64,000 nucleotides of DNA from Pseudomonadota bacterium (GTDB lineage Bacteria > Pseudomonadota > Gammaproteobacteria > Burkholderiales > JAJZUU01): NCBI GenBank assembly GCA_021848325.1, contig JAJZUU010000007.1, positions 2,341-66,340 on the forward strand. Reading direction: 5' to 3'. Each line of letters starts with the position of its first letter. The stretch's first letter is position 1. The translations under genes and the position numbers were made by a program. This document shows, piece by piece, positions 1,460-22,255 of the stretch. Below the pieces are notes generated by a model that worked only from the letters and a program-made list of their open reading frames with translations, did no database searches and was not told the DNA's origin.

Positions 1460-1569
1460 CGGTACGTCCCATCGAAGATCAGTTGCCGTGCCATTCCTGG
1501 ACAACGGGGCAGGGCGATTTTCCGGGCACGCTTCGCCCGGTTGACTTGATCGAACATTTTAGCAGATCA

Positions 1570-1585
1570 AGCAAGAAAGGTGCCA
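1570..1585 (-). promoter_or_regulatory. Sigma-54 (-24/-12) promoter for resB
   Basis: Minus strand reads TGGCACCTTTCTTGCT, matching TGGCAC-N5-TTGC, 110 nt upstream of the resB ATG. Confidence 0.8.
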
Positions 1586-1666
1586 TTGCATTCGGTTCCG
1601 GACATGGGTGCGCGGTCGCCGAGGAGCCCGCCACCCCGGGAGGGGACCCGGCTTCCGCGGGGTATA

Positions 1667-1686
1667 TTTTCCCATTTCCGGGAAAA
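1667..1686. promoter_or_regulatory. Palindromic operator, candidate enhancer-binding-protein site
   Basis: TTTTCCC-ATTTCC-GGGAAAA with perfect 7-bp arms, about 80-100 nt upstream of the sigma-54 site; near copy at 17799-17818. Confidence 0.6.
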
Positions 1687-1694
1687 CGGTCTTC

Positions 1695-2327
1695 CTATTT
1701 CCCGTTTTCAGGATTCTTCCCGCCGTCCTCGCGCGATCGTCTGGCCGCGCCCGCGGGTTTCTTGGCCAGGGCCGCCTGCCACTCCCAGATGGCCGCGCGC
1801 GCCTTGCGCACGAAGGGGTCGGCATTGCTGGACAAATGGACGTAGGTGCGCATCGCCCCCAGGGCCCCTTCCAGGTCCTTCAGCCCCTCCAGGGACTCCG
1901 CCAGGCCGTAGTAGGCGTTGGCCTGCATCGGGCGCAGGTTGATGGCGGTCTGGAAGAAATCGCGGGCGATGTCGTAGCGCTTCAGGCCGATCATGGCAAA
2001 ACCCATGTTCACGTTGGCCTCGGGCATGTCGGGAGCCAGTTCCAGCAGGCGGTGCAGCGCCGTCGCGGCGTCGTCGTAGCGCCCCGCGTGCAGCATTACC
2101 ACGGCCTCCTTGAAGCGCTGATCGATCTCGGCCCGCCTGGCCTGGCTGGCATGCACCTCGGGCTCCATCACCGGGTCGGCCGGGCGCGTAACGGGGCCCG
2201 CCGCCGGCGGCCCTGCGGGGCCGGCCCCGTGGCCCGGCGAGGACGCCGTCCGCAAAATGCCCGCCACGCCGCCGGCGAAAACCACCAGCGCCAGCAAGAA
2301 CAGCCGGTTGCGCCACCAACCCGTCAT
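1695..2327 (-). CDS. Membrane-anchored TPR protein, probably a cytochrome c maturation accessory
   Basis: 210 aa; N-terminal hydrophobic segment, Pro/Ala linker, TPR helices (AMIGLKRYDIARDFFQTAINLRPMQANAYYGLA); ATG overlaps ccsA stop. Confidence 0.8.
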   Translation of the reverse strand: MTGWWRNRLFLLALVVFAGGVAGILRTASSPGHGAGPAGPPAAGPVTRPADPVMEPEVHASQARRAEIDQRFKEAVVMLHAGRYDDAATALHRLLELAPDMPEANVNMGFAMIGLKRYDIARDFFQTAINLRPMQANAYYGLAESLEGLKDLEGALGAMRTYVHLSSNADPFVRKARAAIWEWQAALAKKPAGAARRSREDGGKNPENGK

Positions 2328-3148
2328 ATCATCCCCTTATGGGGCGCCATGCTCACGAACGGCACCCCGAAAAAAGTCAGAAACGCCAATACGAACACGC
2401 CCAGGATCATCAATGCGCCCAACCGGGGCGAGATCGGGTAGCTCAGACGCAGGTGCAACGCCGCCGCCAGCGCCAGCCAGGTAACGAAGGCCCAGGTTTC
2501 CAGGGGATCCCAGGCCCAGTACCGGCCCCATGCGCCCTGGGCCCATACCGCCCCCGCGATCAGCATCAGGCTCTCGAATACCAGGGCCAGGGTCATGATG
2601 CGCCACGCCAGGGCATCCAGCGACACGTCCGGCGGCATGTCGCGAAACCAGGCTGAAAGACGCGTGCGCCGCAACCACATCACCCCCGCCAAACCGACCG
2701 CCAGCAGGCAGGTGCCGAGAAATACCTTGCCCATGGCCACGTGGGCCCACAGCCAGGGCGTATCGTAGGTCGGCGGCAATGGACCGCCCGCCGGCCGCAA
2801 CACCAGCAGCCACAGCCCCAGCAGCAGAATGACCGGAAGGACCACGACGGAGGTCGGCCGCAGCACCGGCAGCCGCCAATAGGCAAAGGCATAGACCACG
2901 CCGAGGCTGAATAAGTTGCTGAGCAGTATCTCGAACATGTTGAGGAACGGGCCGTGCCCGGTGCGCGCCCAGCGCGCGGCGATGCCGACGGAGACGAGCA
3001 CCAGGGCGGTGAGCAGCATGCCCAGCACGACCTTTTCCCGCTGTTGCCCCCGGGCAACCCCTGCCACCGCGACGCCGGCCGTGACGGCATAGGCGGCGAC
3101 GGCCATCCAGATCCAGGGCAGTTCGGGCGCGCGCGCCAGGGCGTTCAT
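2324..3148 (-). CDS. ccsA: Cytochrome c biogenesis protein CcsA/ResC (heme lyase, WWD domain)
   Basis: Start MNALARAP at 3148 (ATGA overlap with upstream gene); WLWAHV, WAQGAWGRYWAWDPLETWAFVTW, ALHLR; multiple TM helices. Confidence 0.9.
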   Translation of the reverse strand: MNALARAPELPWIWMAVAAYAVTAGVAVAGVARGQQREKVVLGMLLTALVLVSVGIAARWARTGHGPFLNMFEILLSNLFSLGVVYAFAYWRLPVLRPTSVVVLPVILLLGLWLLVLRPAGGPLPPTYDTPWLWAHVAMGKVFLGTCLLAVGLAGVMWLRRTRLSAWFRDMPPDVSLDALAWRIMTLALVFESLMLIAGAVWAQGAWGRYWAWDPLETWAFVTWLALAAALHLRLSYPISPRLGALMILGVFVLAFLTFFGVPFVSMAPHKGMI

Positions 3149-4149
3149 GTGTGCAAGGCCCCATGCCCGGCGGAAAAGCCGGCAGCCCGGCCGGTCCGCT
3201 CCGGGCCCGAAGACCCGAGCCGGCGCCAAAAGTGCCAGGCCAGCCCGCCCACGCCGGCCACCGCCACGACAAACAGCCACGGCAGGGTGGGATCGTAGAA
3301 TATCTTGTACCCCATCCAGGTGCGCAACTCGTCGAAACGCAGGCTGCCGCCCTCCAGGCGCGCCGTTTGTCCCGGCTTCAGCTCGATCCGTCGCCCACCC
3401 GAGGAAACGATCAGGACGCCGCTGCTGTCCTTCCGGTCCATGGTCCAGGCGGCATCCGCTCTGAGGGGGGTCTTGAGCCGCAGCCAGAACCTGATCTCCG
3501 CCCCCCCGGGCGGAGTCCATCTGTTGTCCTGCTTCCAGTCGAACAGTGGATAAGAGGGCATGTGGATCGCTCCGGTTACCGGCTTCCCGTGTTCCGGGAT
3601 CCAGGTAAGCAGGGGCGCAAAGCCCTTGTTGGAACTGGTGTAAAACCGGTAGCCATGCAGGATGAGCGGGTGGTCGTCGCCGACCACCATCGGCACCAGA
3701 CGCCCCGCGCCATCCGGGGCCAGCACCTGGCTGCGGGTGGTGGAACGGCTCAACTCCGGGCCGTAGTCCACGGTGAAAGGGCCCTGCACGAAGAAGACCT
3801 TGGAAAATCCCATGGGGTGCAGTGGGCCCTTGGCCAGGACCTGCACGTCGCCGGGCAGAAAAGCGCTGTCCTCCGTCACCTCCACCACCCCGTCCAGGTG
3901 AACCAGCCGCCCCACCGCCGCCAGGACGACGATCCCCAGCAGCGCCAGGTGGAACACCAGCAGCCCGCCCTGGCGGTTGATGCCCGGGTTGACCGCGATG
4001 GCGGCCAGCAGATTGACCGCCAGCAGGCCCAACGGGGCCACCAGCCACCAAAGGGGGGCGGCAGGGCGGTTGTAGCTCAGCAGCACCCCCGCGCACAGCA
4101 AGGCCATCCCCACCAGGGTGAGTCGGACGGAGGACAACAAACGCAACAT
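3145..4149 (-). CDS. Short ResB/CcsB-like cytochrome c biogenesis protein
   Basis: 334 aa; N-terminal TMs, LLVFHLALL His motif, VVGDDHPLILHGYRFY (ResB NxPL-like), C-terminal YDPTLPWL TM; coupled to ccsA. Confidence 0.75.
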   Translation of the reverse strand: MLRLLSSVRLTLVGMALLCAGVLLSYNRPAAPLWWLVAPLGLLAVNLLAAIAVNPGINRQGGLLVFHLALLGIVVLAAVGRLVHLDGVVEVTEDSAFLPGDVQVLAKGPLHPMGFSKVFFVQGPFTVDYGPELSRSTTRSQVLAPDGAGRLVPMVVGDDHPLILHGYRFYTSSNKGFAPLLTWIPEHGKPVTGAIHMPSYPLFDWKQDNRWTPPGGAEIRFWLRLKTPLRADAAWTMDRKDSSGVLIVSSGGRRIELKPGQTARLEGGSLRFDELRTWMGYKIFYDPTLPWLFVVAVAGVGGLAWHFWRRLGSSGPERTGRAAGFSAGHGALHT

Positions 4150-4153
4150 CCCG

Positions 4154-6637
4154 TCATGGTACGTTATTGCAGGCCTCGGTGCCAGACCACATCCAGAATA
4201 TCCCGGTCTGGCCGTTGCCCGGCGCCCCCACCGAGCCGCAGTTGCCGGCGCTCCAGTTGCCGCTTTTGGCGAAGGTCTTCACCTTCAGCACCGCCCGGTT
4301 GTAATAGGGCGGATTGGTGTAGCCGGCGGTGGTGTTGTTGCGCACCTGGGTCCCCGCCGCCAGCCCCCCTTCCGGACCCACGTCGTTCAGGTTCACCAGG
4401 AACGCCTTGTTCTTCCAGCCGTGGGGCACCGCCACGTGGCACAGGCTGCAGCGGAAGTTGGTCACTACCGCTGCGTGGTAGACGTGCCAGTTGGTGGTCC
4501 CGGCGCCGCCACCGCCGCCGCTGCCGCTGAAGCCGCTCTTGAGCACCGTCGGCGGATTGGGGTTGCCGTACTGGTTGTAGTCGTGGCACTTGAAACACAA
4601 GTCGCCGGGCGTCCCTTCCCCCGTCCCCGTCGTCTTGTCCCCGCTCCATGGCCCCTTCAGGATGAAGTTGTTGGTCGATCCGTGCGGCCCCCATGGCTGG
4701 CCCGTGCCGGGCACCACCGTCCCCGACGCCGTGTTGGAACCATGGCAGTCGCTGCAGTACATGGTCTCGTTACCCACGTTGGCGTTCCACGGGCTCAGCC
4801 ACAGGTTCGCGCTGGCGTTGCCCCGCACCGCCGGCGTGCGCCCGGTGTTCAGCATCACCGGGTGCCACGAGCGGTGGTTGTTGGTCTGGAAGTTGACCGT
4901 GTAGCCCTGCCCCGGCGGCACCCCGGCAAACGCCCCGGAGTCGGTGGTGGTCACTTCCCCCTGGTGGCTCACCGGCGACTGGAATTCCATCGCCTGGTTG
5001 GTGAATTGCAGCAGGCCGTTGGTGCCCGAGGGCGTCCCGCCCCCGGAGGAGCCCAGCATCGGCGGGGTGGTGCCGAAGCCGTAGTCGGAGTGGCATTTGA
5101 GGCAGATCTGGTATTCCCGGGTGACGTAGGATGCGGTCACGGTGGAGTCCACGCTCCCCCCCGGGTCCCCGCGCTTGAGGGTGTAGCTGGCGGGCAACGA
5201 CCCGAAGCTGTGGGCGCTGTAGTTGGGCTCCACCCCCCAGGTGCCCCGGAGCGCCCCGGAAGCGATGTTGCTGCCCAGGATGTGGGTGGACGTGGCGTCC
5301 GGACTGGCCAGGTTGCCGTAGAACACCTGGTTGCGGATGATCCGGTGCGGGTTGTGGCAGTCGGTGCATTCGGCGTGCCGGTTGGTGAGGTTGCCGAATC
5401 CCAGCAGGCTCCTCGATTCGATGAAGTCCGAGCCTTCATTGGTCGGGGCGTCGGCGTTGTAGGTCCCGATGTCATGCACCTCCATCCCCGCCGGCTGGTC
5501 GGTGCTGGTGATGGGCATGTGCCGCGGCAGGCTGAAGTCGTCCTGGATGTCGGCCACGTTGGTGGTGGGGGTGACGATGCTCTGGGCGCTGTTGGTGTGG
5601 CACTGGTAGCAGGTCTGCTCGATCGCCGAGTTGCCGCCGCTCTTGGGCACGGCGGTGCTGTCTGTGCCTTCCCGCAACAGGCGCCGCGCCCCTTGCACGG
5701 TGTGGGGGTCGTGGCAGTTCAGGCACGCCGCCTGCCAGACCTGGGTGCCGCTGGGGAATTCCCGCTGGGCGGCGGCGCTGGCGGTATAGGTCTCGTTGGC
5801 CACCAGCGGGTTGGCGTGGGCGGAGTAGGCCCAGGTCGGCCCCGCCTTGTCGTGACAGGCCAGGCAGATGGTGTCGCTGTTCGGGTTGAATGCGCCGCCG
5901 GTGGGCGCCGCCGCCTGCAGCCGGTTGGCCCGCAGGAATTTGATGTCCCCCAGGGTGGGGTCGGTGTCCCGAATGTGGGGGTCGTGGCAGGTGGTGCACT
6001 CCAGCTTGCCCGCTTCCAGCGGCAGCAGGGGTTTCGTTAGCGAGCCGGGCACCCGCGTGCCCACCGTGGTGCCGTCCGGCGCCCACAGCTCGCCGTCCTT
6101 GGACGCCAGGGTGCTGTCGTAGGTGAACGAGATGGGGTGGTCGTTGGTGAGGTTGACCCCGAGGTCGCGGGTGTAGCCGGTCAGCGCCCCGGCCCCGGTG
6201 GGCATGGTGCCCCCCACCCCGGTGCCGTTCATGGCTATGCTGGCCGGGCTCTGCCCGTTCAGCACGTCCACCGTGCCCAGCGCCATGGTGCCGTCGTGGC
6301 ACGACAGGCACAGCTTGGAATAACCGTCCGGCGCGGCTGCCAGCTCGGCGGGATTGGCGACCATGGAGCTGGAAAGGTACGGCGTGTAGGTGGACCCGGC
6401 CAGCTTGCGGTTCCACAGCGGCGCCTGGATCGGCTCCGCGCCGTGCGGCGTGTGGCAGAATACGCATATCTGCGATTCGCTCACCGCCGTCACGCTGCCC
6501 GTCCCGCTCACCGACAGGTTGTGCTTGGTGTTGCGGATGTCCGCAATCCGCGTCGCCAGCGCCAGCTCCGTCCCCGCCCACAGCAATCCAAGGCCCAGGC
6601 CCGCCGCAATAAACCAGGGGCCAGTTCTTCTGCGCAT
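4154..6637 (-). CDS. Undecaheme c-type cytochrome, copy 1
   Basis: 11 CxxCH (CVFCH, CLSCH, CTTCH, CLACH, CLNCH, CYQCH, CTDCH, CLKCH, CSDCH, CFKCH, CSLCH); signal peptide MRRRTGPWFIAAGL...ALA; start 6637 chosen by homology with copy 2 (track start 6664). Confidence 0.92.
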   Translation of the reverse strand: MRRRTGPWFIAAGLGLGLLWAGTELALATRIADIRNTKHNLSVSGTGSVTAVSESQICVFCHTPHGAEPIQAPLWNRKLAGSTYTPYLSSSMVANPAELAAAPDGYSKLCLSCHDGTMALGTVDVLNGQSPASIAMNGTGVGGTMPTGAGALTGYTRDLGVNLTNDHPISFTYDSTLASKDGELWAPDGTTVGTRVPGSLTKPLLPLEAGKLECTTCHDPHIRDTDPTLGDIKFLRANRLQAAAPTGGAFNPNSDTICLACHDKAGPTWAYSAHANPLVANETYTASAAAQREFPSGTQVWQAACLNCHDPHTVQGARRLLREGTDSTAVPKSGGNSAIEQTCYQCHTNSAQSIVTPTTNVADIQDDFSLPRHMPITSTDQPAGMEVHDIGTYNADAPTNEGSDFIESRSLLGFGNLTNRHAECTDCHNPHRIIRNQVFYGNLASPDATSTHILGSNIASGALRGTWGVEPNYSAHSFGSLPASYTLKRGDPGGSVDSTVTASYVTREYQICLKCHSDYGFGTTPPMLGSSGGGTPSGTNGLLQFTNQAMEFQSPVSHQGEVTTTDSGAFAGVPPGQGYTVNFQTNNHRSWHPVMLNTGRTPAVRGNASANLWLSPWNANVGNETMYCSDCHGSNTASGTVVPGTGQPWGPHGSTNNFILKGPWSGDKTTGTGEGTPGDLCFKCHDYNQYGNPNPPTVLKSGFSGSGGGGGAGTTNWHVYHAAVVTNFRCSLCHVAVPHGWKNKAFLVNLNDVGPEGGLAAGTQVRNNTTAGYTNPPYYNRAVLKVKTFAKSGNWSAGNCGSVGAPGNGQTGIFWMWSGTEACNNVP

Positions 6638-6638
6638 G
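4200..6638. repeat. 2.44-kb direct repeat unit A (pairs with 6873-9311)
   Basis: Offset 2673; shadow-frame translations identical in both copies; differences found at 4278-4279 vs 6951-6952 and 6622 vs 9295. Confidence 0.95.
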
Positions 6639-6814
6639 TGTCGCCCCGCTCCGAAATCTGGCATGCCAATCCGGCTTCGCCGGTCGGCCCACCCGTTATC
6701 TTAGCGTAACGGCACCGGGTCGGAAAACTTTAGCGACTTTGGGGCAAGGGAAAACCAAAAAGCGCCGGGCAGGACCCGCTGCAACCCGCCCGGCGCCTTC
6801 CACGGCGACTGCCG

Positions 6815-9310
6815 TCACGGCACGTTGTTGCAGGCCTCGCTGCCGCCGCCCATCATGCCGACCATCCAGGCAATCCCGGTCTGGCCGTTGCCCGGCGCCC
6901 CCACCGAGCCGCAGTTGCCGGCGCTCCAGTTGCCGCTTTTGGCGAAGGTCACCACCTTCAGCACCGCCCGGTTGTAATAGGGCGGATTGGTGTAGCCGGC
7001 GGTGGTGTTGTTGCGCACCTGGGTCCCCGCCGCCAGCCCCCCTTCCGGACCCACGTCGTTCAGGTTCACCAGGAACGCCTTGTTCTTCCAGCCGTGGGGC
7101 ACCGCCACGTGGCACAGGCTGCAGCGGAAGTTGGTCACTACCGCTGCGTGGTAGACGTGCCAGTTGGTGGTCCCGGCGCCGCCACCGCCGCCGCTGCCGC
7201 TGAAGCCGCTCTTGAGCACCGTCGGCGGATTGGGGTTGCCGTACTGGTTGTAGTCGTGGCACTTGAAACACAAGTCGCCGGGCGTCCCTTCCCCCGTCCC
7301 CGTCGTCTTGTCCCCGCTCCATGGCCCCTTCAGGATGAAGTTGTTGGTCGATCCGTGCGGCCCCCATGGCTGGCCCGTGCCGGGCACCACCGTCCCCGAC
7401 GCCGTGTTGGAACCATGGCAGTCGCTGCAGTACATGGTCTCGTTACCCACGTTGGCGTTCCACGGGCTCAGCCACAGGTTCGCGCTGGCGTTGCCCCGCA
7501 CCGCCGGCGTGCGCCCGGTGTTCAGCATCACCGGGTGCCACGAGCGGTGGTTGTTGGTCTGGAAGTTGACCGTGTAGCCCTGCCCCGGCGGCACCCCGGC
7601 AAACGCCCCGGAGTCGGTGGTGGTCACTTCCCCCTGGTGGCTCACCGGCGACTGGAATTCCATCGCCTGGTTGGTGAATTGCAGCAGGCCGTTGGTGCCC
7701 GAGGGCGTCCCGCCCCCGGAGGAGCCCAGCATCGGCGGGGTGGTGCCGAAGCCGTAGTCGGAGTGGCATTTGAGGCAGATCTGGTATTCCCGGGTGACGT
7801 AGGATGCGGTCACGGTGGAGTCCACGCTCCCCCCCGGGTCCCCGCGCTTGAGGGTGTAGCTGGCGGGCAACGACCCGAAGCTGTGGGCGCTGTAGTTGGG
7901 CTCCACCCCCCAGGTGCCCCGGAGCGCCCCGGAAGCGATGTTGCTGCCCAGGATGTGGGTGGACGTGGCGTCCGGACTGGCCAGGTTGCCGTAGAACACC
8001 TGGTTGCGGATGATCCGGTGCGGGTTGTGGCAGTCGGTGCATTCGGCGTGCCGGTTGGTGAGGTTGCCGAATCCCAGCAGGCTCCTCGATTCGATGAAGT
8101 CCGAGCCTTCATTGGTCGGGGCGTCGGCGTTGTAGGTCCCGATGTCATGCACCTCCATCCCCGCCGGCTGGTCGGTGCTGGTGATGGGCATGTGCCGCGG
8201 CAGGCTGAAGTCGTCCTGGATGTCGGCCACGTTGGTGGTGGGGGTGACGATGCTCTGGGCGCTGTTGGTGTGGCACTGGTAGCAGGTCTGCTCGATCGCC
8301 GAGTTGCCGCCGCTCTTGGGCACGGCGGTGCTGTCTGTGCCTTCCCGCAACAGGCGCCGCGCCCCTTGCACGGTGTGGGGGTCGTGGCAGTTCAGGCACG
8401 CCGCCTGCCAGACCTGGGTGCCGCTGGGGAATTCCCGCTGGGCGGCGGCGCTGGCGGTATAGGTCTCGTTGGCCACCAGCGGGTTGGCGTGGGCGGAGTA
8501 GGCCCAGGTCGGCCCCGCCTTGTCGTGACAGGCCAGGCAGATGGTGTCGCTGTTCGGGTTGAATGCGCCGCCGGTGGGCGCCGCCGCCTGCAGCCGGTTG
8601 GCCCGCAGGAATTTGATGTCCCCCAGGGTGGGGTCGGTGTCCCGAATGTGGGGGTCGTGGCAGGTGGTGCACTCCAGCTTGCCCGCTTCCAGCGGCAGCA
8701 GGGGTTTCGTTAGCGAGCCGGGCACCCGCGTGCCCACCGTGGTGCCGTCCGGCGCCCACAGCTCGCCGTCCTTGGACGCCAGGGTGCTGTCGTAGGTGAA
8801 CGAGATGGGGTGGTCGTTGGTGAGGTTGACCCCGAGGTCGCGGGTGTAGCCGGTCAGCGCCCCGGCCCCGGTGGGCATGGTGCCCCCCACCCCGGTGCCG
8901 TTCATGGCTATGCTGGCCGGGCTCTGCCCGTTCAGCACGTCCACCGTGCCCAGCGCCATGGTGCCGTCGTGGCACGACAGGCACAGCTTGGAATAACCGT
9001 CCGGCGCGGCTGCCAGCTCGGCGGGATTGGCGACCATGGAGCTGGAAAGGTACGGCGTGTAGGTGGACCCGGCCAGCTTGCGGTTCCACAGCGGCGCCTG
9101 GATCGGCTCCGCGCCGTGCGGCGTGTGGCAGAATACGCATATCTGCGATTCGCTCACCGCCGTCACGCTGCCCGTCCCGCTCACCGACAGGTTGTGCTTG
9201 GTGTTGCGGATGTCCGCAATCCGCGTCGCCAGCGCCAGCTCCGTCCCCGCCCACAGCAATCCAAGGCCCAGGCCCGCCGCAATAAACCAGGGGCTAGTTC
9301 TTCTGCGCAT
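6815..9310 (-). CDS. Undecaheme c-type cytochrome, copy 2
   Basis: 831 aa, same 11 CxxCH; C-terminus GIAWMVGMMGGGSEACNNVP vs GIFWMWSGTEACNNVP in copy 1; start overlaps the 3' end of the upstream NHL gene. Confidence 0.92.
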   Translation of the reverse strand: MRRRTSPWFIAAGLGLGLLWAGTELALATRIADIRNTKHNLSVSGTGSVTAVSESQICVFCHTPHGAEPIQAPLWNRKLAGSTYTPYLSSSMVANPAELAAAPDGYSKLCLSCHDGTMALGTVDVLNGQSPASIAMNGTGVGGTMPTGAGALTGYTRDLGVNLTNDHPISFTYDSTLASKDGELWAPDGTTVGTRVPGSLTKPLLPLEAGKLECTTCHDPHIRDTDPTLGDIKFLRANRLQAAAPTGGAFNPNSDTICLACHDKAGPTWAYSAHANPLVANETYTASAAAQREFPSGTQVWQAACLNCHDPHTVQGARRLLREGTDSTAVPKSGGNSAIEQTCYQCHTNSAQSIVTPTTNVADIQDDFSLPRHMPITSTDQPAGMEVHDIGTYNADAPTNEGSDFIESRSLLGFGNLTNRHAECTDCHNPHRIIRNQVFYGNLASPDATSTHILGSNIASGALRGTWGVEPNYSAHSFGSLPASYTLKRGDPGGSVDSTVTASYVTREYQICLKCHSDYGFGTTPPMLGSSGGGTPSGTNGLLQFTNQAMEFQSPVSHQGEVTTTDSGAFAGVPPGQGYTVNFQTNNHRSWHPVMLNTGRTPAVRGNASANLWLSPWNANVGNETMYCSDCHGSNTASGTVVPGTGQPWGPHGSTNNFILKGPWSGDKTTGTGEGTPGDLCFKCHDYNQYGNPNPPTVLKSGFSGSGGGGGAGTTNWHVYHAAVVTNFRCSLCHVAVPHGWKNKAFLVNLNDVGPEGGLAAGTQVRNNTTAGYTNPPYYNRAVLKVVTFAKSGNWSAGNCGSVGAPGNGQTGIAWMVGMMGGGSEACNNVP

Positions 9311-9311
9311 G
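6873..9311. repeat. 2.44-kb direct repeat unit B (pairs with 4200-6638)
   Basis: See unit A. Confidence 0.95.
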
Positions 9312-10385: not shown

Positions 10386-10386
10386 G

Positions 10387-11418: not shown

Positions 11419-11428
11419 CACTCCGCTC

Positions 11429-11833: not shown

Positions 11834-11847
11834 GGCGCACCTTTCCT

Positions 11848-12411
11848 TCATTTTGGAATCACGCTGTGACAGCGGTTGCATTCGCTCAGGGGAAAGGCCA
11901 CGGTACCATGGCACTTGCCGCAATACTGGCCATTGAGAATGGCCAGCATGGTCAGCCCGGGGGTGGGGCCCTCCTTGAACATGGAGTCGTGGCAGGTGGT
12001 ACAGTCCAGCCAGGCCGTGTGGGGCCTGTGGGGAAACCGCACCCAGGGCGTACCGCCGGTATTTTTCATGATCGTGTCCTGGTCCAGCGTCCTGACCCGG
12101 GTCTGCGGCTGCAGTTTGCTGCGCGGATCGATGTACCCTTCGTTCAGCGCCTGGTCCCAGTTCACCTTGTTGCCGACGTAATCCTGGGGCAGCTTGGACA
12201 GGGAGTCGCCCGGTTCCTGCAACAATGAAATATCCGGATTGGCAGGGTCGTGCAAGCCGTCGCTGATGAGCGCCGCCCAGACGTTCTTTACCGGGGCCAC
12301 GACCGTCCCGCCCCACGCCACACCCGCGCCGATGACCGAAGCCGCGACCAGCAAGGCCGCCCATCTGCCGACACGGCGGTTCCGCAACAAACACACAATA
12401 TCGCTACCCAT
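11848..12411 (-). CDS. Periplasmic c7-type triheme cytochrome c
   Basis: Signal peptide; VRFPHRPH, CTTCH, CGKCH, CNRCH; start MGSDIV chosen over track start 12489. Confidence 0.88.
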   Translation of the reverse strand: MGSDIVCLLRNRRVGRWAALLVAASVIGAGVAWGGTVVAPVKNVWAALISDGLHDPANPDISLLQEPGDSLSKLPQDYVGNKVNWDQALNEGYIDPRSKLQPQTRVRTLDQDTIMKNTGGTPWVRFPHRPHTAWLDCTTCHDSMFKEGPTPGLTMLAILNGQYCGKCHGTVAFPLSECNRCHSVIPK

Positions 12412-12575
12412 CACTGCTTTTGTCTTCCGTCTAAAGATCATCTCTGCCAAGTGCGTCGCCTGGGCGGCCTGCGCACACCCCATACCCATCCCGATATCCC
12501 ATTTTATCGCCTAAACGGCCCGGCCGCCAAAGCCGTCCGCGATTTTGCGGTCCTCCGTCCGGCCGGGAACAAATT

Positions 12576-13325
12576 TTATCGATACACCTTCCACACGCGT
12601 TTCCGCGCGCGGATCATCTCTTCGATGATCTGGTCGGACTTGGGCCGGGTATGGCAGCGGGCACACTCGGTGGGCGGAAACGCCACCGAGCCGTGGCACA
12701 CGCCGCACTTCTGGCCACGCATGATTCCTTCCATGGTGATCCGGTTGGCGCCCTTCTGAGGGACGAAGATGCCGGCATGGCAATTGGCGCAGGCCAGCCA
12801 GCGGGTATGGGCCCCATGGGAGAAGATCACGTCCGGGGTACTCCCTTTCACCTTGAATTCGATATTGAGATCAAACACCGGGGGAGCCGTACCCGCCTTG
12901 TCCAATTCCCAGCGGGGCTTGATTTTGCCCTGGGCCAGCACCTTCATCCAGTCTACCCCATTCCCTGCCCGGTACGGGTCCTTCGGCCAAGGGGAGAATA
13001 CCTCCGACGGCCGTTGCAGCAGGTGCAACTGGTCGTCCGCCGGATCGTGGATGCCGTCCGTGGCGGGCGGCAAGTTGAGCGGCGGCGCCGGCTTCAACAG
13101 GCGATTCATCGGGACCGGGCCGCTGGGCGGGGGCACCTCCGGCGGCGCCATAAAGGCAGGTTTCCCCATCTCGCTGCCCGCCGCGCGCGCCACGGCATCA
13201 TCGGGACTGCGAGGCACGTACCTAACCGGGGGCTCCACGCTGCACCCCACTATCAGCGTCCCAAGGGCCACCGTCGCCAGCCCGCCGAGGAGTCCCAGCC
13301 GCTTAATGTCGACCAGCATATTCAT
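12576..13325 (-). CDS. c7-type triheme cytochrome c lipoprotein
   Basis: Lipobox LIVGC, Pro-rich linker, VIFSHGAH, CANCH, CGVCH, CARCH. Confidence 0.88.
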   Translation of the reverse strand: MNMLVDIKRLGLLGGLATVALGTLIVGCSVEPPVRYVPRSPDDAVARAAGSEMGKPAFMAPPEVPPPSGPVPMNRLLKPAPPLNLPPATDGIHDPADDQLHLLQRPSEVFSPWPKDPYRAGNGVDWMKVLAQGKIKPRWELDKAGTAPPVFDLNIEFKVKGSTPDVIFSHGAHTRWLACANCHAGIFVPQKGANRITMEGIMRGQKCGVCHGSVAFPPTECARCHTRPKSDQIIEEMIRARKRVWKVYR

Positions 13326-13409
13326 AGATCTTCTCAAGAACTCCAGTTCCCAAAATTTCCGGCCCCGGTCCGGTCGGCGCCTCCTCCGTCCGGATACCGT
13401 TGACGGCGC

Positions 13410-15464
13410 CTACATATCGCCGAAGTTCCTGATCGCGTTGAACATGATGGAGGTATGGGTCTGGTTGCCGAATTGGCCCACCCGCGCGATCAGTCCGAGT
13501 TGGGTGCGTCCGATGGAGTAATTCAGACGATTTTCCCAGGAACGGGTTTCGTACTCCTGCGGTCCGCTCAGGACGGGGAGCGCCACCTGTCCGTAGAGGG
13601 TGAGTTGAGACATGAACTGCAGGCGCGGCACACCGAAGGCGCGCTGGTGCCGGTAGGTCAAGTCCCCGCTGGAAGAGGTGGTGAACTGGCTAATAGGCTG
13701 GTCGATGGTGCTCTGACGCGAGGACTGGATAGTCAGGTCCCCGCTCAAGGAGGAGTAGCGATTGAGCAGGGTATTCACCGTCGCCTGAAAATTGATCATT
13801 TGCATGGCGTCCCGGCCGTCATTGAGGGAGCGCGAATCGGTTGCGCTCAAGCGCAGCAGGGTCGAGGTCTTGTCCGCCCCCTTGTTCCAGGTCAGGGACG
13901 CGGTATCGGACAGGCGCCGCGTGGAGGCCACGGCGGTATCCAGGTCGCTGGAAATGCTCTGGCTCAGGTTCATCGCCAACCTGGCGCCCGGGCCGGTCTC
14001 GATGCTGCGGCTCAGGCCGTGGCCCGCCGCCAGGGACAGGTGCCGCCCCGCGGCCAATCCGGTGCGGTTGCTGGCCGTACCCGAGCCGAACCAATAGTAC
14101 TGATACTTGCCGAAATTGAGCGTGTCGGACTGGTAAGTGGCGCCCAGTGACTGATTGGTGCTGGTCGAGGTAGTGCCGCCGCTGGCGGTTTGAGTCAGGT
14201 TGGCAGTGGCATTGAGGCTGACGTTCCTGTTCAGCCGATAGATCGCGCCGCCATTGAGGTTGGCGGAGCGCAAGCTGGTAGGCCCGGTGTCGAGGGCGTA
14301 CAGGCGCACCCCCCCGTTCACGGTCAGGGGGCTCCGTTCCGGGCGCCAGAAGGCGTAGCTGTTCAACTGCAGGAACCGGGTATTGGTGCCTGTGGTGGCG
14401 AGGTTGTAGCGATTGTCGTTGAGGGTGGCCTGGGAATCCACCGAAAACTCCTGGTTCGGCGTGTAGTTGTGGCGAACGTCCAGGGTATTGAGCAGCGCAG
14501 TCTCGCCGGTATCGAGACGCTCGTTCTTGTTGGTGGTACCGCTGACATCCACACTCTGTTTCCCGAAACGGGTCGACGCGCCAAACTGCAGCCCATTCTG
14601 CTGGTAGTCCCCGACGGTTCCGGATTCCCCGGTCTGACTGCTCTGGTCGAAGGCCAGCCGGTAGCGGGTATTCCCCTGCAGCGTCTGGTAGGTCTGACTG
14701 AAGCCGAGGCGCTTGTAGCGGTAGGCCGCCCCGATGGTCCCCGCCAAGCCCGTATCCATCCGGCTGTCCGTGACGTCGTAGTGCGCCTCGAAGGGAAAAC
14801 GGCTTTCCGGCAGCAGCGCCAGGCTGGCGTTTCCGGTGAGGTCGCGGGAACTGCCACCCTGTGTCCCGCTCGTCCAATCCTGGGAGATCCCGATCCCGCC
14901 GCTGACCAAGGCAAACCAGGGGCGCCAGATAAAGCTGCTGCCGTTGAGGGTGGCCGTAAGGAGCTGGTCCCGCGTTTTTTGCGTCCCGATGTCCTCGCTC
15001 CGAAAGGTGTAGCCCACTGAGCCCCAGGTGCGGATGGGAGAGAGGCGCCAGGGGACGAGGCCCTTGATCTTCTCGAAGAGGCCCTTGCTCTTCCCGGGAC
15101 CCGACCCCTCTTCCCCGGTCCCTGACCCCACGTCCCCATTACCCGGCGCCGGGGACTCGACACCTGCGCCGTTCGCGGCGGCGGGGTACGCCGGGCCGGG
15201 GATCCCACCCTCCCCCGGGGGCTGTTGCTCCGCCAAGGTATCCGTCAGGGTCAGATGCAGTGCGTCGCCGGTGGCCGGCTCCGGCTCGGGGGATGACTCA
15301 GACTGCTCGGTTCGCGCTTCCAGGTCCCGGGACAACGCAAGACGCAACGCGTCCCCGGTCACGGGAAACGCCGCCGGCAACGCGCAACGGGGCCAGGCGA
15401 ACGTCAGCCACGCAGCCATCAGGACATATGCCGAGCCCCCGCCTGTGGCGCGCCGTTCACCCAC
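13410..15464 (-). CDS. Predicted outer-membrane beta-barrel (porin/channel)
   Basis: 684 aa, signal-like N-terminus, Ser/Thr/Gln/Asn-rich alternating beta-strand pattern, aromatic residue near C-terminus (SIMFNAIRNFGDM), no heme motif; start uncertain. Confidence 0.7.
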   Translation of the reverse strand: MGERRATGGGSAYVLMAAWLTFAWPRCALPAAFPVTGDALRLALSRDLEARTEQSESSPEPEPATGDALHLTLTDTLAEQQPPGEGGIPGPAYPAAANGAGVESPAPGNGDVGSGTGEEGSGPGKSKGLFEKIKGLVPWRLSPIRTWGSVGYTFRSEDIGTQKTRDQLLTATLNGSSFIWRPWFALVSGGIGISQDWTSGTQGGSSRDLTGNASLALLPESRFPFEAHYDVTDSRMDTGLAGTIGAAYRYKRLGFSQTYQTLQGNTRYRLAFDQSSQTGESGTVGDYQQNGLQFGASTRFGKQSVDVSGTTNKNERLDTGETALLNTLDVRHNYTPNQEFSVDSQATLNDNRYNLATTGTNTRFLQLNSYAFWRPERSPLTVNGGVRLYALDTGPTSLRSANLNGGAIYRLNRNVSLNATANLTQTASGGTTSTSTNQSLGATYQSDTLNFGKYQYYWFGSGTASNRTGLAAGRHLSLAAGHGLSRSIETGPGARLAMNLSQSISSDLDTAVASTRRLSDTASLTWNKGADKTSTLLRLSATDSRSLNDGRDAMQMINFQATVNTLLNRYSSLSGDLTIQSSRQSTIDQPISQFTTSSSGDLTYRHQRAFGVPRLQFMSQLTLYGQVALPVLSGPQEYETRSWENRLNYSIGRTQLGLIARVGQFGNQTHTSIMFNAIRNFGDM

Positions 15465-15493
15465 GCCACCCCTCGCGCCCCTGCCTCGCCCCG

Positions 15494-16522
15494 CTATTTG
15501 GCATCCGTGTCATGCCCTCCTCCGGCAAGCGGTCGATAGAACGAGGTGTCCATCAGGATCGGCGTCTGCTTCCTCAATTTGGCGATCAGGCCCTTCCAGG
15601 CCAGGTCGCTTTGCTCCCTGCGCCACAGGTCGCGCGCCCGTTTCCGGCTCTCAGCAAAGCTGTCCAACCGCGCGGGCCGGCGCTGTTCCAGGCGGAAAAT
15701 CGCCACCCCTTCCAGCAGGCCCACGGGAGGCGAAATCTCGCCCGGCTTGAGTTTGGCGATGGCGCTCTCGGCCAGTCTGCCCAGCATGCCCTGGTGCAGG
15801 TAGCCCATGTCGCCGCCCTGGGCGGCGGTGGAGTCCCCGGAATGGGCCTTCGCCTCGGCGGCGAAATCCGCGCCCTTGCGCAGGCGCTTGATGATCTCCT
15901 CCGCCTCTTTGGTGGCCTTCTCCCGGGCCGAGTTGGGGGCCGAGGGGTCGACCTTGAGCAGGATCAGCGACACCCTCACCTGCTCGGGTTCCGTGAACAG
16001 TTTGGGGTGGCTGAGATAATAGGCTTTCAACTGCTTTTCGCTCGGTTCCGGGACGTTTCGCACCTGCCGCTCGACCTGCTCCAGCAAGCTCTTCTTCTCC
16101 ATGTCCGCGGTGAGTTCCGGAAGAAAGCGAGCCCGGTTCTGGCGCCACTTCTCGTTGCCGGCGTAGCGCTTGTCAAACGCCGCCACGTCCTTCTTGACCT
16201 GGGTCTCGTCCGGCTTCAGCCCGCGCCTCTTGGCCTCCTGCAGCAGGAGCGCATTGTTTACCAGTTGCTCCCCCACCTTCCGCTGCAGGGCCGCCAGCTT
16301 GTCCGCGCCCGGATTGGGGTGATAGAAGGTGTTGCGGACCGCCACCAGAAAGGCGTCGTCGTAATTCTTCCGGGTGATGACGGTATCGCCGACCCGCGCG
16401 AAAATCGCCTCCTTGCCCGCCGGCGGCTCCGCGGTGGCGGCGAAACCCTGCCCCGCCAGCAAGATGCCGCCCAGGACGGCCCAGCAAACCCGCTTGGCAG
16501 CGCCACTCATTGCCCCGGTCAT
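15494..16522 (-). CDS. PpiC/SurA-type peptidyl-prolyl isomerase (periplasmic foldase)
   Basis: EQVRVSLILLK, GADFAAEAKAHSGDS..QGGDMG, LKPGEISPPV parvulin motifs; GGAG RBS before ATG 16522. Confidence 0.88.
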   Translation of the reverse strand: MTGAMSGAAKRVCWAVLGGILLAGQGFAATAEPPAGKEAIFARVGDTVITRKNYDDAFLVAVRNTFYHPNPGADKLAALQRKVGEQLVNNALLLQEAKRRGLKPDETQVKKDVAAFDKRYAGNEKWRQNRARFLPELTADMEKKSLLEQVERQVRNVPEPSEKQLKAYYLSHPKLFTEPEQVRVSLILLKVDPSAPNSAREKATKEAEEIIKRLRKGADFAAEAKAHSGDSTAAQGGDMGYLHQGMLGRLAESAIAKLKPGEISPPVGLLEGVAIFRLEQRRPARLDSFAESRKRARDLWRREQSDLAWKGLIAKLRKQTPILMDTSFYRPLAGGGHDTDAK

Positions 16523-16708
16523 TTTCACTCCATTCCATCCACTGTTGTTCGAGATCCTTCGCATCAGGCGTCCATACTAGCCGGATGCATCCGAATCGGC
16601 AACACGACGACGGGCCAGGCGCGTGCTCCGCCTGGCCCGTCGTCCGCCTGGGCGCCGCGGCTCGGCGGCCTGAAACCCGCCCGCCGCGCGCCGCTCACCC
16701 CGCCGCGC

Positions 16709-17587
16709 TTACTTGATGTGGCAAGACAGGCACAAGGCACTGCCCGTATTGGCCACGCGCAGGAAGGTGGTATTGGTGGAGTGTGGATCGTGGCAGCTCG
16801 CGCATTCCACGAACGGCTCGACCGTGCCGGTGGTGGTGTTGGTACGGGTATACAGACTGATGTCCGTCTTCTCCCGCGTTGCGGCCGTTCCCACGCTGGT
16901 ATCCACCCACCACACCTGCTGTCCGTTAACGGTGCCCACGTTCAGAGCCCCATTCGCGGCATACGTCTTGCCATGGAAGTCGCCCGGCAGATTGATGTCC
17001 CCGCCCGCCGCGAGACCGCCGCCGTACTCGATACCCACCGGGTGGTCGTTCCGCAGGTCGACGCCGATGTTGGTGATGATGCCGGAGGCAAGCGTGCCGG
17101 TTGCGGTGTTCACGTCCGCTCCGGTCATGGTGCCGAAGGTCGCGCCGGCCGGGTTATAGCCGCCCGAGCCGGGGGCGTTGATCATCACGTTCAGCGCCAT
17201 GGTGCCGTCGTGGCAGGACAGACAGGCCAGGGACACCGACCCCACCGGGAGCACCGTTCCCTTCAGGGTGCTGGTGCCCAGCTTGTCGTAGGTGGTGTAG
17301 GTGGTCGGGTTGTTCGTGACCTTGTTCCACAGCGGCGCCTGGGCCGATATGTTGGCCCCGTGGGGCGTATGGCAGAACACGCAGATCTCGGTGGTGGTCA
17401 CCGCGCCGGCAGGGTCGAGATGCGCAGCTCCGGTGCCGGTGACGCTCAGGTTGTGCTTGGTGTCTGCAATCGACAGCGCCAGCGCGCTCGGGGAGAAGGC
17501 GCCCGCGACCAGCAACGCGGCCCCTCCCGCCATCAACGCTCCGCCGACCGCCCGCGTAATCGCTTTCTTGGTGAATGGTGTTTTCAT
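16709..17587 (-). CDS. Secreted tetraheme cytochrome c, OmcE-like
   Basis: Signal peptide ending ALA; TKHNLS, EICVFCHTPH, PLWN, SLACLSCHDG, DLRNDHPV, ECASCHDPH, FLR..NTGSALCLSCHIK; strong RBS AGGAAGGA. Confidence 0.9.
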   Translation of the reverse strand: MKTPFTKKAITRAVGGALMAGGAALLVAGAFSPSALALSIADTKHNLSVTGTGAAHLDPAGAVTTTEICVFCHTPHGANISAQAPLWNKVTNNPTTYTTYDKLGTSTLKGTVLPVGSVSLACLSCHDGTMALNVMINAPGSGGYNPAGATFGTMTGADVNTATGTLASGIITNIGVDLRNDHPVGIEYGGGLAAGGDINLPGDFHGKTYAANGALNVGTVNGQQVWWVDTSVGTAATREKTDISLYTRTNTTTGTVEPFVECASCHDPHSTNTTFLRVANTGSALCLSCHIK

Positions 17588-17721
17588 GGCTATCCTTCCT
17601 TTCTCTTGTAGGCCCTTCAGTAGAATCAAGCTGCAAGTCCGAACCATCCTTGCTTGCGTCCCGGACGCATCGGTGTTCGATGATGCCCCCCGAATGCCCG
17701 CTTACTTCCCACCTTACCCTA

Positions 17722-17737
17722 AGCACATAGCGTGCCA
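17722..17737 (-). promoter_or_regulatory. Sigma-54 (-24/-12) promoter for the tetraheme gene
   Basis: Minus strand TGGCACGCTATGTGCT; GG and GC at canonical spacing; 135 nt upstream of ATG. Confidence 0.72.
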
Positions 17738-17798
17738 GAGGTACAATCTACTGGTGTTTCAACTGCCTTGCCGCCCTTTCCGGGTTCTTGCGGGAGGA

Positions 17799-17818
17799 AA
17801 TTCCCGTAAATGGGAAAA
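17799..17818. promoter_or_regulatory. Palindromic operator, candidate enhancer site
   Basis: Minus strand TTTTCCCATTTACGGGAATT, 17/20 identical to 1667-1686; extra half-site TTTCCCAT at 17832-17839. Confidence 0.6.
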
Positions 17819-17869
17819 CATGCCCGTGGAATTTCCCATATTATAGAATATTTCTACCCTCTTGTCTTT

Positions 17870-18991: not shown

Positions 18992-19112
18992 GTGGACTCC
19001 CGGCTTACGTTTCTGCAACAGGCGCCCGCGGGACGCCCGTTCCCAAGTCTTGCCGCGCTTAAGGCTACTGCCCGTTCCTTACGATTCGGCGGCCGAGACT
19101 TAATTATACAAC

Positions 19113-22177: not shown

Positions 22178-22255
22178 TGTTCCATCCTGCTTATTATTTT
22201 TTGCTAATGAAGCCGATCCGTAGATATCGCCTGGATTGCGGAAAACTTTAGCGGT

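What the first reader, a model, noticed from the sequence alone, without database searches (positions are those of the whole stretch)
1570..17839. Shared sigma-54 promoter plus enhancer palindrome links the cytochrome subunit to heme attachment
Seen: -24/-12 boxes upstream of resB (1570-1585) and the tetraheme gene (17722-17737). Each has a 20-bp palindrome roughly 60-100 nt further upstream (TTTTCCCATTTCCGGGAAAA at 1667-1686; TTTTCCCATTTACGGGAATT at 17799-17818, 17/20 identical) and an extra TTTCCC half-site. Knowledge: sigma-54 promoters need an enhancer-binding ATPase acting at such distances. Inference: one bEBP, not encoded in this window, co-induces the structural subunit and cytochrome maturation, defining an uncharacterised regulon motif TTTCCC-N6-GGGAA.
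Basis: partly seen in the sequence, partly recalled or inferred. Interest (0 to 1): 0.75.

Follow-up and report, generated by a model that had tools for sequence, protein, structure and literature searches.

The report
Sigma-54 enhancer circuit of Uet cytochromes
Two sigma-54 promoters with a shared upstream palindrome control a known extracellular-electron-transfer cytochrome cluster (uet/occ) and its haem-attachment genes. The same design, with a dedicated sensor kinase and activator pair, recurs in about a hundred other bacteria, so the cluster's so far undescribed regulation can now be tested.

Summary
On the minus strand, TGGCACGCTATGTGCT (17737..17722) precedes the tetrahaem gene. TGGCACCTTTCTTGCT (1585..1570) precedes resB. 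Each has a TTCCC-N6-GGGAA palindrome centred 73 or 93 bp upstream of the -24 GG, plus a degenerate second site 32 or 30 bp further up.

The genes form the published uet/occ porin-cytochrome cluster. The papers I read on it mention no sigma-54 and no regulator of the cluster.

In 81 uetA loci, 60 carry a strong sigma-54 site and 42 also carry the palindrome. The spacings recur about every 10.5-11 bp, which indicates helical phasing. In 80 independent metagenome loci, 30 palindrome-promoter pairs lie on the coding strand and 2 on the other. All 30 sit at three junctions: upstream of uetA, after the TPR gene, or before the kinase gene.

The probable activator is an NtrC-family response regulator with its histidine kinase, on the 6.8-kb contig C30 of this genome. 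Its orthologue lies on the same contig as uetA in at least 28 other genomes.

No transcript or binding data were available. This is a new regulon of a known regulatory type.

The parts
17722..17737 (-). Sigma-54 promoter P_uetA, TGGCACGCTATGTGCT. The predicted start is near 17711, giving a leader of about 124 nt to the ATG at 17587.
   Evidence: It scores 14.0 on my scale, and only 20 sites in the genome reach 14. A sigma-54 site scoring 12.5 or more lies upstream of uetA in 60 of 81 loci; shuffled sequences give a mean of 2.8.
17799..17818 (.). Proximal enhancer palindrome AATTCCC-GTAAAT-GGGAAAA, centred 73 bp upstream of the -24 GG.
   Evidence: The distance falls in the 70-73 bp class seen in orthologues.
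17832..17849 (.). Distal degenerate site TTTCCC-ATATTA-TAGAAT, 32 bp from the proximal site and 105 bp from the GG.
   Evidence: score 8.5. Spacings of 30-32 bp and the 103-105 bp distance class recur in orthologues.
16709..17587 (-). uetA, a tetrahaem c-type cytochrome of 292 aa with 4 CXXCH motifs.
   Evidence: gene names from bioRxiv 10.1101/2022.05.06.490989.
2324..16564 (-). The rest of the first operon: uetB (PPIase), uetC (684-aa protein, no Pfam hit), two trihaem c7 cytochromes, two NHL propeller proteins, two tandem undecahaem uetJ genes (831 and 836 aa, 11 CXXCH each) and ccsB/ccsA.
   Evidence: The gaps between genes are 0-180 bp.
1695..2327 (-). TPR protein (nrfG-like), the last gene before the second promoter.
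1667..1686 (.). Proximal enhancer palindrome TTTTCCC-ATTTCC-GGGAAAA, centred 93 bp upstream of the -24 GG. It starts 9 bp after the TPR gene's stop codon.
   Evidence: score 11.0, the maximum on my scale.
1698..1715 (.). Distal degenerate site TTTCCC-GTTTTC-AGGATT, 30 bp from the proximal site. It overlaps the 3' end of the TPR gene.
   Evidence: score 8.5.
1570..1585 (-). Sigma-54 promoter P2, TGGCACCTTTCTTGCT. The predicted start is near 1559.
   Evidence: It scores 14.0. A promoter at this position recurs after the TPR gene in 8 of 11 full clusters and in 13 pairs from metagenome loci.
1..1504 (-). resB, 568 aa from the TTG at 1504 (an in-frame ATG lies at 1459). The gene runs off the start of the window. 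On the same contig it is followed by ccsA (346 aa) and a 288-aa protein with two cytochrome c domains.
17870..19018 (-). NHL-repeat propeller gene that precedes uetA in all 10 other fully fetched clusters. The enhancer lies between this gene and uetA.

Best explanation
Window 1-19,000 (minus strand) is a uet/occ extracellular-electron-transfer cluster arranged as two sigma-54 transcription units.

P_uetA (17737..17722) drives uetA through uetJ, then ccsBA and the TPR gene. P2 (1585..1570) drives a second haem-attachment set (resB, ccsA) and a cytochrome gene. It very probably continues into a thiol-reductase gene, a histidine-kinase gene and a response-regulator gene that the assembly placed on contig C30.

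Sigma-54 holoenzyme would sit closed on each promoter until an NtrC-family activator acts on it. My candidate is C30:2957-4351, which has a receiver domain, an AAA+ domain with GAFTGA, and a Fis-type HTH. Once phosphorylated by its membrane kinase (two transmembrane segments, a periplasmic loop of about 135 aa, HAMP), it would bind as dimers to the TTCCCR-N4-YGGGAA sites. There are two sites per promoter, about three helical turns apart. The activator would then assemble into a ring, contact the polymerase by DNA looping from the same face of the helix, and open the promoter using ATP.

The result would be joint induction of the cytochromes and of the machinery that attaches their haem, and probably positive feedback on the regulator itself.

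Shown: the sequences, their rarity, their conservation, their phasing, and the genomic linkage of the regulator. Inferred: binding, sigma-54 dependence, the extent of each operon, autoregulation and the signal.
For: - The sites are present and rare.
- rpoN and 12 bEBP genes are present.
- A sigma-54 site scoring 12.5 or more lies upstream of uetA in 60 of 81 loci (shuffled mean 2.8). A palindrome lies 40-180 bp further up in 42 of them (shuffled mean 0.005).
- Palindrome-to-GG distances fall in classes 51-52, 60-64, 70-73, 81-83, 92-96, 103-105, 113-117, 127-128 and 137. Rayleigh R is 0.62 at an 11-bp period. This was replicated in 80 metagenome loci, with R 0.5-0.6 at 10-10.75 bp.
- Palindrome-promoter pairs are strand- and place-specific. 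There are 23 forward and 0 reverse in 11 full clusters plus contig C30, and 30 forward and 2 reverse in 842 kb of metagenome loci. All forward pairs lie upstream of uetA, after the TPR gene, or next to the regulator genes (before the kinase gene, or at the end of or after the bEBP gene).
- P2 precedes maturation genes everywhere examined: ResB/CcsA here, CcsA-type genes in G065 and G068, and CcmF in G073 (followed by CcmH) and G102.
- The candidate regulator has REC, Sigma54_activat with GAFTGA at residue 219, and HTH_8.
- Its orthologues (53-68% identity, against about 40% for paralogues) occur in 37 of 46 uetA genomes. They lie on the uetA contig in at least 28 of these. The gene order redoxin, HK, bEBP, cytochrome c is identical to that of C30.
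- Presence of the orthologue tracks presence of the sigma-54 promoter: 32/37 against 3/9, Fisher p = 0.003.
- Its recognition helix (GIGLSSLYRKLEE) is almost invariant across orders, matching the conserved motif.
- In this genome no other locus pairs a strong palindrome with a strong sigma-54 site.
Against: - There is no experimental or transcript evidence.
- In this assembly the regulator is on a different contig. Both contig ends stop in a repeat with about 105 copies, so adjacency rests on synteny only.
- About a quarter of uetA loci show no sigma-54 site, and several marine gammaproteobacterial loci have the orthologue and a promoter but no recognisable palindrome.
- Three genomes have the promoter and a palindrome (degenerate in one) but no detected orthologue. 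All three are MAGs, so the gene may simply be missing from the assembly.
- The HTH is of a common type, so specificity was not demonstrated.
- The loci are phylogenetically related, so the shuffle and Rayleigh p-values are overstated.
- A sigma-70-like AAGACA-17-TATAAT overlaps the distal site at 17868..17840. With 0.5 expected by chance, it is not significant.
Confidence: 0.78

Rival explanations
1. The promoters are sigma-54 dependent and the palindrome is an enhancer, but another of the genome's 12 bEBPs binds it, not the C30 regulator. Alternatively, another factor modulates the activator at this site.
For: The C30 gene is not on the window's contig. Its Fis-type HTH is common among bEBPs. 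Three uetA genomes have the promoter and a palindrome (degenerate in one) but no detected orthologue.
Against: Of the 12 bEBPs in this genome, only the C30 protein finds relatives next to uetA in other genomes. Linkage holds in at least 28 genomes in two gene arrangements, downstream at about 15-29 kb or upstream at about 4-9 kb. Co-occurrence with the promoter gives p = 0.003. The three exceptions are incomplete MAGs.
Confidence: 0.12
2. The palindromes are RNA hairpins that end or stabilise the upstream transcripts (the NHL gene and the TPR gene). They would be terminators or processing sites, not protein-binding DNA.
For: Both lie just after a stop codon. The uetA-side hairpin folds better than shuffled sequence (z = -2.65).
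Against: Neither hairpin is followed by a U tract, and the terminator scan found none on the transcribed strand. The resB-side hairpin is no better than shuffled sequence (z = -0.5). The half-site letters themselves are conserved across phyla (T 56-58/60, C 47-53/60, G 54-58/60, A 59/60), rather than pairing being kept through compensating changes. The distance to the -24 element is helically phased, which a terminator would not require.
Confidence: 0.04
3. The similarity is chance, or a leftover of a duplicated intergenic segment, and has no function.
For: None beyond the small sample of two sites in one window.
Against: There is no similarity outside the motifs. The elements are rare genome-wide. 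They are conserved in two independent collections.
Confidence: 0.01

Closest known systems
Two-component NtrC-family activators of sigma-54 promoters (NtrB/NtrC, AtoS/AtoC, ZraS/ZraR)
   Same: The regulator has the REC, AAA+ (GAFTGA) and Fis-type HTH architecture and is paired with a membrane HAMP-HisKA kinase. Inverted-repeat sites come in pairs about three turns apart, roughly 70-130 bp upstream of a -24/-12 promoter, on a fixed helical face. The best NCBIfam matches are AtoC, NtrC and ZraR.
   Different: It falls below the curated cut-off of every named equivalog (AtoC 465 bits against 714; NtrC 404 against 559; ZraR 353 against 760). From memory, the TTCCCR-N4-YGGGAA motif matches no published bEBP site that I know, and text searches found none. 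The targets are extracellular-electron-transfer cytochromes and haem-attachment genes, not nitrogen, acetoacetate or zinc functions.
uet (undecahaem electron transfer) cluster of Ca. Tenderia electrophaga, also named the occ cluster of Ca. Dechloromonas occultata
   Same: The gene order matches: tetrahaem UetA, PPIase UetB, outer-membrane UetC, trihaem c7 cytochromes, two NHL proteins, undecahaem UetJ, ccsBA and a TPR/NrfG gene.
   Different: No cupredoxin UetF was detected here, uetJ is duplicated in tandem, and a second resB-ccsA pair follows the TPR gene. The papers on the cluster mention no sigma-54 and no regulator of the cluster. The regulatory layer described here is therefore an addition.
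Sigma-54 control of electron-transfer and pilus genes in Geobacter (RpoN regulon, PilR); recalled from memory, not tested here
   Same: Sigma-54 and NtrC-type regulators govern extracellular electron-transfer components.
   Different: The organisms, genes and binding sites are different. I made no sequence comparison with Geobacter regulators.

Membership tests
Sigma-54 (-24/-12) promoter | GG and GC exactly 10 nt apart within TGGCAC-N5-TTGCW | tested here: met
   TGGCACCTTTCTTGCT and TGGCACGCTATGTGCT. Both are among the 20 best-scoring sites in the genome.
Sigma-54 (-24/-12) promoter | The organism encodes sigma-54 | tested here: met
   A PF04552 match at C98:26993-27460, E = 4e-66.
Sigma-54 (-24/-12) promoter | Transcription starts about 12 nt downstream of the GC and depends on rpoN | not testable with these tools
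bEBP upstream activating sequence (enhancer) | An inverted repeat roughly 70-150 bp upstream of the promoter, conserved at orthologous promoters | tested here: met
   42 of 60 sigma-54-bearing uetA loci carry it (shuffled mean 0.005). There are 30 forward and 2 reverse pairs in the independent loci.
bEBP upstream activating sequence (enhancer) | Face-of-helix dependence relative to the promoter | tested here: met
   The spacing is periodic at 10-11 bp: R = 0.62 and R = 0.5-0.6. The p-values are inflated because the loci are related.
bEBP upstream activating sequence (enhancer) | Bound by the cognate activator | not testable with these tools
   This needs EMSA, footprinting or ChIP.
NtrC-family response-regulator bEBP (the C30 protein) | REC domain, AAA+ domain with GAFTGA, and a C-terminal HTH_8 | tested here: met
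   Pfam E-values: 2.7e-31 (Response_reg), 2.2e-71 (Sigma54_activat), 9.3e-11 (HTH_8). GAFTGA is at residue 219 and the Walker A motif is GESGTGK.
AtoC, NtrC or ZraR equivalogs | Score above the NCBIfam curated cut-off | tested here: not met
   465 against 714, 404 against 559, and 353 against 760 bits.
uet/occ cluster | Tetrahaem UetA, undecahaem UetJ, trihaem c7 proteins, PPIase, NHL proteins, ccsBA and a TPR gene, in the published order | tested here: met
   CXXCH counts are 4, 11, 11, 3 and 3. Synteny with 10 other clusters is, and the published order.
uet/occ cluster | Cupredoxin UetF | tested here: not met
   No cupredoxin domain was found among the ORFs searched in 1-19,018.
Intrinsic terminator | A GC-rich hairpin followed by a U tract | tested here: not met
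   The scan found none on the transcribed strand of either intergenic region.

The most novel reading that the evidence does not exclude
The kinase-activator pair may be a dedicated sensor of the extracellular redox or metal state. It would switch on the whole Uet conduit together with its own haem-attachment system, and itself, in a positive-feedback loop. This promoter-enhancer module has stayed fixed while the maturation genes behind P2 were exchanged between System II (ResB/CcsA) and System I (CcmF/H/G) in different lineages. If so, the regulatory architecture, not the gene content, is the conserved unit carried with this horizontally spread cluster.
Probability: 0.35. Interest if true: 0.68.

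Novelty: new member of a known kind. Interest (0 to 1): 0.56.

Why it matters
The uet/occ cluster is a widespread but genetically untested candidate route for electron uptake from cathodes and iron, or for Mn(III) reduction. The papers describing it give no regulator.

A defined two-promoter sigma-54 regulon, a 16-bp operator and a named sensor-activator pair would make several things testable:
- which signal induces the pathway;
- whether a constitutively active regulator can switch the pathway on in cultured carriers or heterologous hosts;
- whether the operator can serve as a marker for further regulon members in MAGs.

It also gives a clear case of cytochromes being co-regulated with a private haem-attachment system.

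Tried and rejected
- Close relatives for phylogenetic footprinting. The 60 nearest GTDB genomes are all in other families of the same order, and only four have even a distant uetA homologue. The metagenome scan gave at most 64% protein identity. Base-by-base footprinting was therefore not possible.
- Joining C97 and C30 by end overlap. The shared 76 bases belong to a repeat of about 105 copies, so they prove nothing.
- Covariation between the regulator's recognition helix and motif variants. The helix is nearly invariant, so the test carries no information.
- Further regulon members in this genome. Eight loose pairs were found against 6.5 expected by chance, and only the two window sites are strong.
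- A third promoter before the cytochrome c gene on C30. None was found here, and a Sel1-repeat ORF fills that gap. One other cluster (G073) has such a pair, and G096 has a weaker one inside the end of its bEBP gene.
- Literature search by motif sequence. It returned only eukaryotic noise.
- One Pfam search was wasted on a 40-residue fragment.
- Earlier notes from this scan added nothing on regulation.

Full report
**1. Observation**

Read on the minus strand, the window has TGGCACCTTTCTTGCT at 1585..1570 and TGGCACGCTATGTGCT at 17737..17722. Both have the GG and GC of a -24/-12 promoter exactly 10 nt apart.

TTTTCCCATTTCCGGGAAAA lies at 1667-1686. The reverse complement of TTTTCCCATTTACGGGAATT lies at 17799-17818. 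The palindrome centres are 93 and 73 bp upstream of the GG.

The extra TTTCCC half-sites are real, at 1698-1703 and 17832-17837. Each begins a degenerate second site (TTTCCC-N6-AGGATT and TTTCCC-N6-TAGAAT), 30 and 32 bp from the main site.

**2. Not chance**

The genome is a 3.0-Mb, 64% G+C, 119-contig assembly. The window is C97:2341-66340.
- There are only seven TTCCC-N6-GGGAA sites in the genome, two of them here.
- At 3 mismatches or fewer, each 20-mer finds the other and one further site.
- Twenty sigma-54-like sites score 14 or more on a simple weighted consensus, and these are two of them.
- Of 22 palindromes scoring 10 or more, only these two have a sigma-54 site above 11.5 within 35-170 bp downstream. 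Both of those score 14.0.
- A loose genome-wide search for pairs gave 8 against 6.5 expected, with the two window pairs far ahead.
- The two intergenic regions do not otherwise align.
- The genome encodes sigma-54 and 12 sigma-54 activators, none on this contig.

**3. The genes**

On the minus strand the order is as follows.

| Gene | Coordinates | Notes |
|---|---|---|
| NHL propeller | 17870-19018 | precedes uetA |
| enhancer + P_uetA | 17722-17849 | |
| uetA | 16709-17587 | 292 aa, 4 CXXCH |
| PPIase | 15494-16564 | |
| 684-aa protein | 13410-15464 | no Pfam hit |
| two trihaem c7 cytochromes | 11429-13337 | 3 CXXCH each |
| two NHL propellers | 9294-11460 | |
| two tandem undecahaem cytochromes | 4154-9310 | 11 CXXCH each |
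| ResB-like plus CcsA | 2324-4149 | |
| TPR protein | 1695-2327 | |
| enhancer + P2 | 1570-1715 | |
| resB | from 1504, running off the start of the window | 568 aa |

On the same contig beyond the window, resB is followed by ccsA (346 aa) and a 288-aa protein with two cytochrome c domains. The contig then ends.

This is the published uet cluster, uetABCDE(F)GHIJ-ccsAB-nrfG, of Ca. Tenderia electrophaga (bioRxiv 10.1101/2022.05.06.490989). It is also known as the occ cluster of Ca. Dechloromonas occultata (bioRxiv 10.1101/695007) and has been noted in Gallionella (PMC10734462).

In these three papers 'sigma' or 'sigma-54' does not occur. The only 'regulator' hits concern unrelated NO-responsive regulators. 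None of the 15 top-ranked papers in a search combining 'undecaheme' with sigma-54 terms contained 'undecaheme'.

**4. Conservation**

A scan of one genome per species found 171 uetA relatives. I kept the best 80, at 45-58% identity, from Burkholderiales, Chromatiales, Thioalkalispiraceae, Magnetococcales, one Nitrospinota MAG and others.

In those 80 upstream regions plus the window's own:
- 60 of 81 hold a sigma-54 site scoring 12.5 or more. The mean in 200 shuffles is 2.8 and the maximum is 8.
- 42 of those 60 also hold a palindrome scoring 9 or more, 40-180 bp further upstream. The shuffle mean is 0.005.

The consensus of 60 sites is TTCCC-R-N4-Y-GGGAA. Each of the ten core letters is kept in 47-59 of 60 sites. 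Loci that fail the threshold mostly carry variants: TTCCA-N6-TGGAA and TTCTC-N6-GAGAA in Magnetococcales, TTCCC-N6-GAGAG and TTCCT-N6-AGGAA elsewhere.

The distances from palindrome centre to GG cluster at 51-52, 60-64, 70-73, 81-83, 92-96, 103-105, 113-117, 127-128 and 137 bp. Rayleigh R is 0.62 at a period of 11 bp and 0.53 at 10.5 bp. Two sites 23 or 30-32 bp apart are common. The window's four sites (73, 105; 93, 123) fit these classes.

**5. Place and strand**

I fetched ten complete clusters and scanned them together with this genome's contigs C97 and C30. They contain 23 palindrome-promoter pairs on the coding strand and none on the other strand.
- The pairs lie between the NHL gene and uetA, or after the TPR gene. 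In two clusters a pair lies at the end of or after the bEBP gene.
- Counting the two clusters whose pair is spaced beyond my window, 8 of 11 clusters have the post-TPR promoter.

An independent scan of metagenome contigs, with the NHL protein UetI as query, gave 80 loci and 842 kb.
- There are 30 forward pairs and 2 reverse.
- All 30 forward pairs lie upstream of uetA (14), after the TPR gene (13), or between the redoxin and kinase genes (3).
- The periodicity is replicated, with R 0.5-0.6 at 10-10.75 bp.

**6. What P2 drives**

The first gene after the post-TPR promoter is always a cytochrome c maturation gene:
- ResB then CcsA in this genome;
- a CcsA-type protein in G065 and G068;
- CcmF in G073 (Ramlibacter), followed there by CcmH/CycH, and in G102 (Dechloromonas).

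Downstream, with short gaps, come a ResA/TlpA-like redoxin, a histidine kinase and a sigma-54 activator.

**7. The activator**

Of this genome's 12 bEBPs, only the one on contig C30 (2957-4351) finds relatives in the uetA loci.

C30 is 6.8 kb. It encodes a small protein of unknown function, a redoxin (CPPC), a HAMP-HisKA-HATPase kinase, the bEBP, a Sel1-repeat protein, a monohaem cytochrome c and a propeller protein. The bEBP has REC, an AAA+ domain with GAFTGA at residue 219, and HTH_8.

The order redoxin, kinase, bEBP, cytochrome c is exactly what follows the TPR and maturation genes in all ten fetched clusters.

In 46 uetA genomes the best match to the C30 bEBP is bimodal. In 37 genomes it is 53-73% identical, counting two partial genes at contig ends. 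In the remaining 9 the best match is only at the paralogue level of about 40%.

The orthologue lies on the uetA contig in at least 28 genomes:
- 10 by fetched sequence;
- 17 by matching contig length and coordinates;
- one more by sequence at the end of its locus.

Two arrangements occur: downstream at about 15-29 kb, and upstream at about 4-9 kb.

Presence of the orthologue goes with presence of a sigma-54 promoter at uetA: 32 of 37 against 3 of 9, Fisher p = 0.003. This is not corrected for phylogeny. The complete chromosome CP070775 lacks both.

The recognition helix region, GDRRxAAQxLGIGLSSLYRKLEE, is almost invariant across orders. That fits a conserved operator, but it left no covariation to test.

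The protein is below the curated cut-off of every named NCBIfam equivalog, with AtoC the nearest.

In this assembly, the start of C97 and the start of C30 both end in the same 76-bp repeat, which has about 105 near-identical copies. This explains the contig break, but it does not prove that the two contigs are adjacent.

**8. Mechanism proposed**

Closed sigma-54 complexes at P_uetA and P2 would be opened by the phosphorylated C30-type regulator. It would bind as dimers to two in-phase TTCCCR-N4-YGGGAA sites per promoter. The signal would come through a kinase with two transmembrane segments and a periplasmic loop of about 135 aa without a haem motif.

P2 would add a second haem-attachment system and probably transcribes the regulator genes, giving positive feedback.

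Predicted starts are near 17711 and 1559. These steps are inferred, not shown.

**9. Rivals**

- A different binding protein remains possible (0.12).
- A terminator or RNA hairpin is unlikely. There is no U tract, the resB-side hairpin is no better than shuffled sequence, the half-site letters themselves are conserved, and the spacing to the promoter is phased.
- Chance or a duplication remnant is excluded.

**10. Verdict**

This is a new regulon, operator and regulator subfamily of the well-known NtrC/sigma-54 kind. It is attached to a known but experimentally uncharacterised electron-transfer cluster, and I found no description of it in the literature available to me.

Noticed in passing
C97:1-76 (just outside the window) and C30:6-81; copies inside the window near 23717 and 63139: A 76-bp sequence (GAGGACAGATTTTGTCGATTTTGCAGGTCAATAGTCG...GGACCGGTCA) occurs about 105 times in the genome, mostly without any mismatch. 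About 25 copies lie at contig ends, so this element appears to be a major cause of the fragmented assembly. It looks like a very young miniature mobile element.
   Followed up: partly
window 1-1585 compared with loci L108:15951-19677, L116:19118-19999, L102:16989-17951 and L104:17538-18560: The conserved post-TPR sigma-54 promoter precedes System II maturation genes (ResB/CcsA) in this genome and two others. In Ramlibacter and Dechloromonas it precedes System I genes (CcmF, and CcmH in Ramlibacter). This is a non-orthologous swap behind the same promoter and enhancer.
   Followed up: partly
window 4154-9310: Two tandem undecahaem uetJ genes (836 and 831 aa, 11 CXXCH each), with repeated internal ORF patterns. 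The ten other fetched clusters each show one tblastn match to UetJ.
   Followed up: no
window 2324-4149: The first ccsB/ccsA region reads as two long overlapping frames: a ResB-like frame at 3145-4149, and a 590-aa frame at 2324-4096 whose C-terminus is CcsA. It is either a fused CcsBA with a frameshift or assembly error, or two overlapping genes.
   Followed up: no
contig C30:~2100-2125 (the kinase gene): The kinase has a Cys-rich insertion, CPEPCGTC, after the HisKA helix. It is kept as C..C..C or C..C in 7 of 10 orthologues and absent in 3. It could be a redox or metal sensing site.
   Followed up: partly
window 19103-19110 (minus strand) and 17840-17868 (minus strand): A perfect extended -10 element, TGTATAAT, lies upstream of the NHL gene that precedes uetA. 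A sigma-70-like AAGACA-17-TATAAT overlaps the distal enhancer site. These could be basal promoters, but statistically they are unremarkable.
   Followed up: no
window 19172-22510 (minus strand): A 1112-aa MASE3-PAS-GGDEF-EAL protein is encoded directly upstream of the cluster, and a separate GGDEF gene lies at 22211-22798 (plus strand). I did not check whether these are conserved next to other uet clusters.
   Followed up: no
contig C7:27266-27283 and contig C20:17650-17672: C7 has a perfect palindrome, TTTCCCGCGATGGGGAAA, in an intergenic region with no sigma-54 site nearby. C20 has a 10+1+10 palindrome, CTTTTCCCGTAACGGGAAAAG, with a spacer one base shorter, inside a coding frame. Their function is unknown.
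   Followed up: partly
contig C44:1482-2276 (minus strand): A uetA paralogue (open frame of 334 aa; 54% identity in the N-terminal part and 82% in the C-terminal part) lies elsewhere in the genome. I did not examine its upstream region in detail. No strong pair was found there.
   Followed up: no
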